Of a stretch of 64,000 nt of DNA, positions 61,458 to 61,759 are shown one piece after another; within the stretch, counting starts at the first letter, position 1; every line of letters begins with the position of its first letter. The stretch comes from a virus: the IMG/VR virus record IMGVR_UViG_3300044638_007100. One strand, 5' to 3'. The translations under genes were made by a program, and so were the position numbers. The notes under the pieces are model-generated. The model did not search any database. It was not told where the DNA came from and saw only the letters and a program-made list of their open reading frames with translations.

Positions 61458-61575
61458 CGCCGAAGTCGGGAATTGAACCCGAACTTTTCCCTGACAATGG
61501 AATTTAGAGTAATTGCTGTCCGTATCTAAAACTAGATAACTGCTTTTTAACGTGCTACCGTTACACTACTTCGGC
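61458..61575 (-). ncRNA. tRNA chimera T1: 71-nt cloverleaf with a 47-nt CAGCAA module in the anticodon stem
   Basis: Acceptor GCCGAAG/CTTCGGC, D-arm, T-arm TCGGG-TTCAATT-CCCGA; loop ATTGTCA; insert about 61503-61549. Confidence 0.7.
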
Positions 61576-61580
61576 ATTAC

Positions 61581-61643
61581 TAGATAGTTTTTATTTTTCG
61601 GATAAAAATTTGGCGAAAAAGTTTTAAATTGCTGAACTATCTA
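61581..61643 (-). ncRNA. CAGCAA stem module E2
   Basis: 9-bp stem TAGATAGTT/AACTATCTA plus CAGCAA; inner TTTTTCG/CGAAAAA stem. Confidence 0.7.
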
Positions 61644-61646
61644 AAG

Positions 61647-61759
61647 TGGGGAAGGTAAGATTCGAACTTACGACCAACGGCTCCCAATGCATTTTAATTG
61701 CTGTTAACATCTTAACAAGATGTATTTTTTCGTTGCTCTACCAACTGAGCTACTTCCCC
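61647..61759 (-). ncRNA. tRNA chimera T2: 73-nt Pro(TGG)-like cloverleaf with a 40-nt CAGCAA module in the anticodon stem
   Basis: Acceptor GGGGAAG/CTTCCCC, canonical D- and T-arms; removing 61691-61730 gives ACGGC-ATTGGGA-GCCGT. Confidence 0.75.

What the first reader, a model, noticed from the sequence alone, without database searches (positions are those of the whole stretch)
61458..61759. Two complete tRNAs with a circularly permuted CAGCAA module grafted into the anticodon stem
Seen: T2 becomes a 73-nt cloverleaf (ACGGC-ATTGGGA-GCCGT; anticodon TGG with G37 and A73, as in tRNA-Pro) if 61691-61730 is removed. T1 becomes a 71-nt cloverleaf (loop ATTGTCA) if about 47 nt are removed at nearly the same position. 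Both inserts read A-run / 3' arm / 3-4-nt loop / 5' arm / CAGCAA, which is the free module with its open end capped and the tRNA body as its apical domain. Both loops share C-ATTG-NN-A-G with a non-canonical A32. The inserts are too short for group I/II introns and lack an obvious bulge-helix-bulge. Inference: these are tRNA-derived decoys or adaptors tethered to the DUF2828 protein (for example bait for host anticodon nucleases or synthetases), or tRNAs with a new kind of removable insert.
Basis: partly seen in the sequence, partly recalled or inferred. Interest (0 to 1): 0.88.

Follow-up and report, generated by a model that had tools for sequence, protein, structure and literature searches.

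The report
tRNA-shaped RNAs for Ro60-like protein
Two tRNA-shaped RNA genes in this cyanophage carry an extra conserved arm (a hairpin followed by ACAGCAAU), and they are most likely non-decoding partner RNAs of the neighbouring Ro60-shaped protein, a pairing I found in many unrelated phages but in no paper or RNA catalogue I could search.

Summary
Rfam's tRNA model hits both genes (54.6 and 45.6 bits) with a 40-47-nt insert in the anticodon arm. ARAGORN calls them only once the insert is deleted (tRNA-Pro TGG, tRNA-Thr TGT).

They are neither pseudogenes nor, most likely, intron-bearing tRNAs. In 103 distinct related RNAs, 98% of stem positions pair and compensatory changes are abundant. The insert is always a covarying hairpin, 2-3 nt, then a near-invariant ACAGCAAU box. 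The anticodon-like hairpin is not conserved: it is absent in 19 of 93 RNAs, and the anticodon differs between orthologues.

The same stem-plus-box module stands free in the spacers and in the leader of the adjacent DUF2828/DUF7788 gene. That protein's model matches Ro60 over its full length (Z 22.9). Across 77 diverse phage loci, modules are about 150-fold enriched on the gene strand just upstream of this gene.

Best reading (0.7): these are Y-RNA-like tRNA mimics, a circular permutation of YrlA, docked to a Ro60-like protein. Binding and function are inferred, not shown.

This scan has already found the system on other DNA (at least 86 genomes). A preprint reports that the likely Felixounavirus homologue counters the Ppl defence.

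The parts
61647..61759 (-). T2: a 113-nt tRNA-shaped RNA with acceptor, D and T arms. The module is inserted after position 29 of the anticodon stem (insert 61691-61730, hairpin 61723-61707, CAGCAA 61703-61698). The anticodon-like hairpin GC-ATTGGGA-GC lies at 61690-61677.
   Evidence: Rfam tRNA 54.6 bits. ARAGORN calls tRNA-Pro(tgg) after the deletion. The MFE fold keeps all arms. CM R1 scores it 59.9 bits.
61458..61575 (-). T1: a 118-nt tRNA-shaped RNA. The module hairpin with a 1-nt bulge lies at 61540-61522 and CAGCAA at 61518-61513. The apical hairpin TTCC-ATTGTCA-GGGAA lies at 61502-61487.
   Evidence: Rfam tRNA 45.6 bits. ARAGORN calls tRNA-Thr(tgt) after a 46/47-nt deletion. In the 25-sequence alignment A2 no pair is broken in the acceptor, D or T stems. 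Folding z-score is -3.3.
61765..61850 (-). M0: the closing stem GAGATTATT/AATAATCTC with CAGCAA (61837-61832) encloses small hairpins and a canonical T arm. The topology is YrlA-like, with the ends in the module stem.
   Evidence: Sequence and fold. Orthologues occur in L002-L012. The same layout lies just upstream of the gene in distant phages.
61576..61646 (-). M1: free module in the T2-T1 spacer. The stem is AGATAGTT/AACTATCT, with CAGCAA at 61634-61629.
   Evidence: Fold z-score -2.9.
61407..61457 (-). M2: free module in the T1/tRNA-Gly spacer. The stem is TAGATGATT/AATCATCTA, with CAGCAA at 61447-61442.
   Evidence: Fold z-score -3.7.
61881..63344 (-). Gene for the 487-aa DUF2828 + DUF7788 protein, a Ro60-fold ring plus a vWA domain with a MIDAS motif.
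   Evidence: Pfam. PHROG 850 'RNA-binding protein'. AF2 pLDDT 92.6. Foldseek's top 12 listed matches are Ro60 or TROVE-domain entries. VIA Z 22.9 over 413 residues. D294, S296, S298 and D392 are invariant and T360 is at least 90% conserved.
63356..63479 (-). E5 and E4: two free modules in the leader between tRNA-Val and the gene (CAGCAA 63470-63465 and 63401-63396). The 3' arm of E4 (63363-63356) abuts GGAG (63355-63352), which lies 7 nt before the ATG.
   Evidence: The same arrangement recurs in most distant loci.
61917..61945 (-). Sigma-70-type promoter TTGACA-17-TATAAT (12 of 12 matches) inside the 3' end of the gene, about 70 nt upstream of M0. It is the likely start of the RNA array transcript.
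   Evidence: Related loci carry TTGACA..TAAGAT at the same place.

Best explanation
T1 and T2 are non-decoding, tRNA-shaped small RNAs of a Y-RNA-like family. The extra arm (a 6-9-bp hairpin, 2-3 nt, then single-stranded ACAGCAAU) is the docking handle for the adjacent Ro60-fold protein (DUF2828/DUF7788). The same handle occurs in three layouts in this locus. It closes simple spacer RNAs (M1, M2, E4, E5). It closes a T-arm-bearing mimic (M0, YrlA-like). In T1 and T2 it is capped by a loop and planted in the anticodon arm of a complete tRNA body. T1 and T2 are therefore circular permutations of the YrlA design. Their ends lie in a normal acceptor stem, so RNase P, RNase Z and the CCA enzyme could release and finish them from the tRNA-array transcript (inferred). 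The L-shaped body and the variable anticodon-like loop would then present a tRNA look-alike on the Ro-like ring. Possible roles are to recruit or decoy tRNA-acting enzymes, or to gate the ring, as part of phage RNA repair or counter-defence (inferred). Shown here: the anatomy, conservation and covariation, the linkage to the gene, and the protein fold. Inferred: binding, processing and biological role.
For: (1) The tRNA body is under structural selection. In A2, 13 of 24 pairs show compensatory changes and no pair is broken in the acceptor, D or T stems. In A3 (103 distinct RNAs) 98% of cells pair, and the covariation score is 0.773 against 0.218 when shuffled and 0.143 or less when slid.
(2) The module hairpin is 99% paired, and all 6 of its pairs change on both sides. 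I counted 41 distinct 3' arms. The box is nearly invariant in 80 unique RNAs: C 100%, A 91%, G 100%, C 99%, A 100%, A 94%.
(3) The module travels with the gene. It occurs at 3.04 per kb on the gene strand in the 600 nt upstream, against 0.02 per kb on the opposite strand. 53 of 77 loci with 39-81% identical proteins have two or more modules nearby. It is also seen beside the gene in Listeria P100, mycobacteriophage Silverleaf, Aeromonas Aeh1 and Felixounavirus dune.
(4) The protein has the full-length Ro60 fold with a MIDAS motif.
(5) The Silverleaf neighbour RNA hits Rfam YrlA at 39.8 bits, E 1e-5.
(6) The anticodon hairpin is dispensable. It is absent in 19 of 93 RNAs and only 7 of 93 are canonical. 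T2 orthologues carry TGG, TCG, TGT, TCT, GTT or TAC, or no hairpin at all.
(7) L002 and L003, whose DUF2828 protein is 99% identical, carry a normal tRNA-Thr(tgt) beside an identical T1.
(8) RNA-repair genes lie nearby in other phages: RtcB in P100 and an RNA ligase in Yersinia fHe-Yen9-04.
(9) A preprint reports that the Ro60-like gp130 of Bas63, upstream of its tRNA genes, counters the Ppl defence. The authors guess that some of those 'tRNAs' are Y RNAs.
Against: No binding data exist and no protein-RNA model could be made with these tools. Pfam TROVE does not match the protein, and Rfam YrlA does not hit anything in the window. By my own reading's list, roughly 24 of the 29 seven-nt apical loops keep T33 and a purine at 37. 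T2 and several orthologues restore a perfect 5-bp stem when the insert is removed, which also fits a decoding or spliced form. A3 was aligned to the model's structure, which biases the pair counts towards it. The Yersinia jumbo-phage homologue showed no clear module in its leader.
Confidence: 0.7

Rival explanations
1. T1 and T2 are genuine decoding tRNAs (Pro-UGG, Thr-UGU) interrupted by a new kind of short intervening sequence. The hairpin-CAGCAA module marks it for excision, and an RNA ligase reseals the tRNA, perhaps with the Ro-like protein as a platform.
For: Deleting 40 nt from T2 gives a textbook cloverleaf with U33, G37 and A73. Several T2 orthologues also restore ACGGC/GCCGT with 7-nt loops. 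Many 7-nt apical loops keep T33 and R37. Phages with this gene often carry RtcB or another RNA ligase.
Against: L002, L003 and L006 orthologues of T2 have no anticodon hairpin. Anticodons switch among Pro, Arg, Thr, Asn and Val on nearly the same body. T1 has C37, and its paralogues have A33 or 6-, 9- and 10-nt loops. A normal tRNA-Thr(tgt) co-exists with T1. The module also stands free in spacers and in the mRNA leader. There is no group I core, no bulge-helix-bulge and no known bacterial splicing endonuclease. RtcB is absent from the closest complete genome, phage B3.
Confidence: 0.1
2. The module is a selfish or purely cis-acting DNA/RNA element (a MITE-like repeat, an RNase processing site or an attenuator) that spreads in tRNA arrays. 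T1 and T2 are tRNA genes disabled by its insertion, with no link to the protein.
For: The module is repeated at least seven times in 2.3 kb, always in non-coding spacers of a tRNA array. Tandem copies abut the RBS, which would also fit a plain cis-regulator.
Against: The disrupted tRNA bodies show no decay: no pair is broken in their acceptor, D or T stems across 25 sequences, with many compensatory changes. The insert position and layout are conserved from cyanophages to Aeromonas and gut phages. Occurrence is strand-specific and tied to one gene family at 39-81% protein identity. No target-site duplications or transposase genes were seen.
Confidence: 0.06

Closest known systems
Bacterial and phage Ro60 (Rsr) with YrlA/YrlB Y RNAs (Chen et al. 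2014, PMC4201824; Rfam RF02553; Thermus phage phiLo Ro60, PMC12135203)
   Same: A ring-shaped HEAT-repeat plus vWA protein is encoded next to, and on the same strand as, several small RNAs. One kind of RNA has a protein-binding stem plus a tRNA-like domain with T and D arms, and simpler stem-only RNAs sit alongside. The setting is tRNA and RNA-repair genes. M0 and the mycobacteriophage neighbour RNA share the YrlA topology.
   Different: The protein belongs to Pfam DUF2828/DUF7788, not TROVE, and is 10-17% identical to Ro60 and TROVE-domain structures. The conserved RNA signature is a helix plus single-stranded ACAGCAAU, not the Ro-binding bulged helix and the GNCGAA box. In T1 and T2 the RNA ends lie in an open acceptor stem and the binding stem is a capped internal arm, a circular permutation of YrlA. 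Many members also keep an anticodon-like hairpin.
Bas63 (Felixounavirus) gp130, a Ro60-like counter of the Ppl defence (PhageMaP preprint, 10.1101/2024.10.10.617714)
   Same: It is a Ro60-like protein gene directly upstream of a phage tRNA array, and the authors speculate that some of those 'tRNAs' are Y RNAs. The related Felixounavirus dune has a DUF2828 gene in exactly that position, with CAGCAA modules in the array.
   Different: I infer that gp130 is the DUF2828 orthologue from gene order and family conservation in the genus; I did not check it on the Bas63 record. The preprint defines no partner RNA. The host and the defence system differ from those of a cyanophage.
Intron-containing tRNAs (cyanobacterial group I introns in the anticodon loop; archaeal bulge-helix-bulge introns at non-canonical sites)
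   Same: An intervening sequence lies in the anticodon arm, and its removal restores a cloverleaf (T2).
   Different: The insert is 40-47 nt, too short for a group I core, and it has no Rfam intron hit. There is no bulge-helix-bulge. It lies in or before the 5' strand of the stem. The restored anticodon arm is not conserved among orthologues.
Dictyostelium Class I RNAs (PMC7919456)
   Same: The paper describes a short covarying stem joining the 5' and 3' ends, with a conserved unpaired 11-nt motif next to the 5' arm. T3, C6, C9, A10 and A11 are near-invariant, a spacing that fits xxUxxCAGCAA. DUF2828 is also a eukaryotic family.
   Different: This lead came from earlier notes of this scan. The motif's letters are not printed in the text I could read. 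The only direct binder reported is an RRM protein (Rnp1A). No link to DUF2828 was tested here.

Membership tests
Ro60 / TROVE proteins (for the adjacent gene) | Full-length fold: HEAT-repeat ring followed by a vWA domain | tested here: met
   AF2 model pLDDT 92.6. Foldseek's top 12 listed matches are Ro60 or TROVE-domain entries, best E 3.5e-8, TMq 0.60. VIA Z 22.9, rmsd 4.0 A, 413 aligned residues, model 9-464 against Ro60 11-536.
Ro60 / TROVE proteins (for the adjacent gene) | MIDAS motif (DxSxS...T...D) in the vWA domain | tested here: met
   D294, S296, S298 and D392 are invariant and T360 is at least 90% conserved in 51 sequences of 38-93% identity. Pfam VWA_2 matches 36 of 51 members.
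Ro60 / TROVE proteins (for the adjacent gene) | Sequence match to Pfam TROVE (PF05731) | tested here: not met
   TROVE is not among the families listed for the window protein or among the 25 most widely matched families of the 51 members at E <= 1; those are DUF2828, DUF7788 and VWA families. A profile search of PDB sequences finds no Ro60.
Ro60 / TROVE proteins (for the adjacent gene) | Binds Y RNAs or misfolded RNA ends | not testable with these tools
   No RNA-protein modelling or experiment is available here.
YrlA-type Y RNA (Rfam RF02553) | Encoded beside a Ro-type gene and on the same strand | tested here: met
   T2 starts 122 nt and T1 306 nt downstream of the gene on the same strand. 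Family-wide linkage is shown.
YrlA-type Y RNA (Rfam RF02553) | tRNA-like domain with T arm and D arm | tested here: met
   Rfam tRNA hits. T8, A14, the GG of the D loop and GGTTC.A..CC of the T arm are invariant in A2.
YrlA-type Y RNA (Rfam RF02553) | Protein-binding stem formed by the RNA's own 5' and 3' ends, with the acceptor-like stem closed by a loop | tested here: not met
   In T1 and T2 the ends lie in the acceptor stem and the module is an internal capped hairpin. The feature is met by M0, M1 and M2.
YrlA-type Y RNA (Rfam RF02553) | Covariance-model score at the gathering threshold | tested here: not met
   There is no YrlA hit at E <= 1 in 61250-63700. The mycobacteriophage relative scores 39.8 bits against a threshold of 69.
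tRNA (Rfam RF00005) | Covariance-model score above the gathering threshold | tested here: met
   54.6 and 45.6 bits against a threshold of 29.
tRNA (Rfam RF00005) | Contiguous anticodon stem-loop with U33 and a purine at 37, and an anticodon conserved among orthologues | tested here: not met
   As encoded, the arm is interrupted, and ARAGORN fails on both. T1 has C37. Only 7 of 93 family members are canonical and 19 have no hairpin. T2 orthologues carry six different anticodons or none.
Group I or bulge-helix-bulge tRNA introns | Group I catalytic core, or two 3-nt bulges flanking a 4-bp helix at the junctions | tested here: not met
   Rfam finds the window's group I intron at 36313-36565 but nothing in the 61250-63700 stretch that holds T1 and T2, even at E <= 1. 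The inserts are 40-47 nt. Reading the junctions shows no helix that pairs the two splice sites.

The most novel reading that the evidence does not exclude
DUF2828 proteins and ACAGCAAU-handle RNAs form a second, very widespread Ro/Y-type particle of phages. In it, interchangeable tRNA-shaped cargo with paralogue-specific anticodon-like loops is displayed on the ring as bait or adaptor for tRNA-targeting host defences or repair enzymes. This would be a programmable RNA-based counter-defence, possibly with eukaryotic relatives such as the Dictyostelium Class I RNAs.
Probability: 0.25. Interest if true: 0.9.

Novelty: new variant of a known kind. Interest (0 to 1): 0.78.

Why it matters
DUF2828 is a very large family of unknown function. 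It comprises about 7,000 clusters at 50% identity, occurs in 705 phage records including Felix O1, Listeria P100 and mycobacteriophages, and is also found in plants and amoebae.

Giving it a specific RNA partner with a simple sequence signature makes its function directly testable. It also explains 'pseudo-tRNAs' and over-long 'tRNAs' annotated in phage genomes, such as the tRNA-Pseudo of phage B3 and the 122-nt tRNA-Val of Aeh1.

It adds a new topology to the known ways of mimicking tRNA. It also links Ro-type particles to phage counter-defence, for which one experimental hint already exists (Bas63 gp130 against Ppl).

Tried and rejected
- **Group I intron or other Rfam family in the inserts:** nothing beyond tRNA at E <= 1.
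- **YrlA in the window:** no hit.
- **TROVE by sequence:** no Pfam or PDB-sequence match.
- **Recent duplication of the phage's own tRNAs:** T1 and T2 are not recent duplicates of tRNA-Pro or tRNA-Thr. The best identities are about 0.7, which is generic tRNA similarity.
- **Whole-genome searches:** no genome is held for this window.
- **RNA-repair genes in phage B3, the closest complete genome:** no RtcB, and only marginal RNA-ligase-family hits of 25-27 bits.
- **Yersinia fHe-Yen9-04 homologue:** no clear module in the leader or the downstream gap.
- **16-mer collection scan:** most of the 100 hits were chance matches and had to be filtered by context.
- **Literature:** five papers mention DUF2828, all on eukaryotes and none on function. 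There was nothing for DUF7788 or phrog_850. The Burroughs and Aravind 2016 RNA-repair paper is not held.
- **Dictyostelium motif:** its exact letters could not be found in text.
- **Bas63 record:** my guessed accession turned out to be Bas51, and Bas63 was not among the 60 rows listed.
- **Complex prediction:** not used, because it takes no RNA.

Full report
**What the window is.** The window is from a T4-like cyanophage. Rfam finds a group I intron, a wcaG RNA, a PhotoRC-II RNA and a glutamine riboswitch. The nearest record is Synechococcus phage B3, family Kyanoviridae.

On the minus strand, one unit runs in this order:
- promoter (63628-63600)
- tRNA-Val (63569-63498)
- two small stem-loop elements, E5 and E4 (63479-63356)
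- a 487-aa ORF (63344-61881)
- M0 (61850-61765)
- T2 (61759-61647)
- M1 (61646-61576)
- T1 (61575-61458)
- M2 (61457-61407)
- tRNA-Gly (61406-61335)

A perfect TTGACA-17-TATAAT promoter lies at 61945-61917, inside the end of the ORF and just ahead of the RNA array.

**Checking the observation.** Rfam's tRNA model matches T2 at 54.6 bits and T1 at 45.6 bits, end to end. It leaves 51 and 60 nt unaligned in the anticodon arm. ARAGORN does not call either gene.

When 61691-61730 is deleted, ARAGORN calls a 73-nt tRNA-Pro(TGG). T1 minus 46 or 47 nt is called tRNA-Thr(TGT). Both inserts read A-run, hairpin, 2-3 nt, CAGCAA, T-rich tail.

The spacers M1, M2, E4 and E5 have the same helix and box in the open order: 5' arm, CAGCAA, variable loop, 3' arm. 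T1's loop has C at position 37. In the T1 family the module sits between the D arm and a shortened anticodon-like hairpin, rather than clearly inside the stem.

**Are T1 and T2 decaying pseudogenes?** They are not. I collected relatives from IMG/VR through the neighbouring protein and by a motif scan, then picked tRNA-shaped bodies by script.
- In 25 T1-type sequences, RNAalifold recovers the acceptor, D and T stems with no broken pair. 13 of 24 pairs show compensatory changes.
- A covariance model built from them finds 110 matches in 79 sources.
- On that alignment, 98% of cells pair. The covariation score is 0.773, against 0.218 for shuffles and at most 0.143 for slid partners. The alignment is fitted to the model, which favours the structure, but the margin is large.

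**The module itself.** The hairpin is 99% paired, and all six of its pairs change on both sides. Its sequence is lineage-specific: TATCT/AGATA in cyanophages, and GGATCA/TGATCC, GTCAT/GTGAC, GAGTCTA/TAGACTC and others elsewhere. I counted 41 distinct 3' arms.

The box that follows is almost invariant in 80 unique RNAs: A 84%, C 100%, A 91%, G 100%, C 99%, A 100%, A 94%, U 86%. A covarying helix next to an invariant single-stranded box is the usual signature of a protein-binding site.

**Are they decoding tRNAs with an intron?** This is unlikely, for five reasons.
- The stretch after the box is the least conserved part of the RNA. Of 93 family members, 19 have no hairpin there. Loop lengths range from 3 to 15 nt. 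Only 7 have a stem of at least 4 bp with a 7-nt loop, T33 and R37.
- T2 orthologues with nearly the same body carry TGG (window), TCG (phage B3), TGT, TCT, GTT or TAC. Phages L002 and L003, whose protein is 99% identical to the window's, and the more distant L006 have no hairpin at all.
- T1 paralogues have loops such as ATAGGGA (A33) or loops of 9-10 nt.
- L002 and L003 carry an ordinary tRNA-Thr(tgt) as well as a T1 identical to the window's.
- The inserts are too short for a group I core and have no bulge-helix-bulge. The same module also occurs where there are no exons to join.

One caveat: by my own reading's list, about 24 of the 29 seven-nt loops keep T33 and a purine at 37. Mimicry of an anticodon loop therefore seems to be selected in a subset, and splicing of that subset cannot be excluded.

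**The neighbouring protein.** Pfam gives DUF2828 plus DUF7788. PHROGs gives phrog_850, 'RNA-binding protein'. Mycobacteriophage records call homologues 'Ro-like RNA binding protein'.

Sequence methods find no TROVE match. However, an AlphaFold2 model from 51 diverse sequences (pLDDT 92.6) matches Ro60 over its whole length:
- Foldseek's top 12 listed matches are Ro60 or TROVE-domain entries. The best has E 3.5e-8 and TM 0.60.
- VIA-align gives Z 22.9, rmsd 4.0 A and 413 aligned residues. The next unrelated fold, single vWA domains, scores about Z 10.
- The MIDAS residues D294, S296, S298 and D392 are invariant, and T360 is at least 90% conserved.

The family is very large: 6,993 clusters at 50% identity and 705 phage records.

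**Linkage of the module to the gene.** I examined 77 loci whose proteins are 39-81% identical to the window's. Modules (the box preceded by a 7-nt arm that has a partner) occur at these densities:

| Region | Gene strand | Opposite strand |
|---|---|---|
| 600 nt upstream of the gene | 3.04 per kb | 0.02 per kb |
| Distant flanks | 0.17-0.26 per kb | 0.10-0.14 per kb |

53 of the 77 loci have two or more modules next to the gene (a looser count is).

By eye, the same handle lies beside the gene in four unrelated phages:
- Listeria phage P100 has three free modules upstream, with RtcB and an HD phosphohydrolase downstream.
- Mycobacteriophage Silverleaf has three modules. One encloses a T arm, a closed acceptor stem and a D arm, and it hits Rfam YrlA at 39.8 bits.
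- Aeromonas phage Aeh1 has two tRNA bodies with an A-run/hairpin/CTGCAA or CCGCAA insert. One of them is annotated as a 122-nt tRNA-Val.
- Felixounavirus dune has the gene directly upstream of its tRNA array, with two modules inside the array.

**How it most likely works.** The locus looks like a Ro60/Y-RNA system built from a divergent Ro paralogue and a different RNA handle.
- M1, M2, E4 and E5 correspond to simple stem-only Y RNAs such as YrlB.
- M0 and the Silverleaf RNA correspond to YrlA, with the ends in the binding stem and a tRNA-like domain at the apex.
- T1 and T2 are the circular permutation of that design. The ends lie in a normal acceptor stem, and the binding stem is capped and planted in the anticodon arm.

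That topology would let RNase P, RNase Z and the CCA enzyme cut these RNAs out of the tRNA-array transcript. It would also present a complete L-shaped tRNA look-alike on the ring.

What the particle does is inferred only. Three observations bear on it:
- RNA-repair genes lie nearby in other phages (RtcB, RNA ligase, polynucleotide kinase).
- Known Ro/Y RNA biology includes tethering to PNPase and an operon that responds to damaged tRNA (PMC4201824; the abstract of PMC7790460, seen).
- The PhageMaP preprint reports that the Ro60-like gp130 of the Felixounavirus Bas63, upstream of its tRNA genes, counters the Ppl defence.

Together these point to RNA repair or counter-defence. The last leader module abuts the RBS here and in many distant loci, which suggests that the protein also controls its own translation.

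**Prior knowledge.**
- Rfam 15 has no family for the handle.
- My paper searches found nothing on DUF2828 function or its RNAs.
- The PhageMaP authors only guess that some Bas63 'tRNAs' may be Y RNAs.
- Chen et al. 2014 described a case where the T and D arms are oriented differently relative to the RNA ends (D. radiodurans Yrn1 against YrlA). Permuted layouts are therefore not unprecedented among Y RNAs.
- Earlier notes of this scan describe the same DUF2828/CAGCAA pairing in at least 86 other genomes, and tRNA bodies with the permuted module in about ten. I treated those notes as leads and re-derived the evidence here.
- One lead from those notes is a likeness to the Dictyostelium Class I RNAs. 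It fits the published description of a terminal stem plus an adjacent 11-nt motif with C6, C9, A10 and A11 conserved. I could not verify the motif's letters.

**Verdict.**
- Observation: confirmed.
Tethered tRNA mimics are favoured and a removable insert is disfavoured.
- Novelty: a new variant of the Ro60/Y-RNA kind.
- Confidence in the partner-RNA explanation: 0.7.

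Noticed in passing
window 61917-61945 (-): A perfect sigma-70 consensus promoter (TTGACA, 17 nt, TATAAT) lies inside the last 65 nt of the DUF2828 ORF, pointing into the RNA array. Related phages have TTGACA..TAAGAT just after the stop codon instead.
   Followed up: partly
window 63356-63479 (-): Two tandem free modules form the gene's leader. 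The 3' arm of the second ends one base before the GGAG Shine-Dalgarno. The same arrangement recurs in most distant loci, which suggests translational autoregulation by the protein.
   Followed up: partly
window 61790-61816 (-), inside M0: M0 contains a second TATCT..AGAT-type hairpin (CUAUCUGCAUAGAUGG) that is not followed by a CAGCAA box. L002 lacks this piece of M0.
   Followed up: no
window 59750-61276 (-): A full-length SLH + OprB-type porin gene (508 aa) is carried by the phage directly downstream of tRNA-Gly. A ferritin-like gene lies at 58929-59516.
   Followed up: no
window 63657-63998 (-): An HNH endonuclease ORF (113 aa) lies immediately upstream of the promoter of the tRNA-Val/DUF2828 unit.
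   Followed up: no
L118:7925-8040 (Aeromonas phage Aeh1): An unannotated tRNA-like RNA has a 7-bp acceptor stem, a D arm and two consecutive T arms. It lies next to the two module-bearing tRNA bodies.
   Followed up: no
L116:2459-3010 (Listeria phage P100): A ROOL RNA match (86 bits, below the gathering score of 99.1; E 3e-16) sits in the tRNA array about 1 kb upstream of the DUF2828 gene.
   Followed up: no
L005:1778-1803, L007:4695-4719, L008:4849-4873: A conserved hairpin CAGACAG-TTYTCT-CTGTCTG followed by TTTTAT separates an ACCAGAA-type RNA from a short (about 86 nt) tRNA-like RNA whose whole anticodon arm is replaced by hairpin + CTGCA. It is either a terminator or a processing signal inside the array.
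   Followed up: no
window T2 versus L002:4562-4673 and L003:4586-4697: The DUF2828 proteins of these phages are 99% identical to the window's, and their T1 is identical. The middle of T2 (hairpin, box CAGCAA versus CTGCAA, and the anticodon-like part) is nevertheless replaced wholesale. This suggests cassette-like exchange of this segment.
   Followed up: partly
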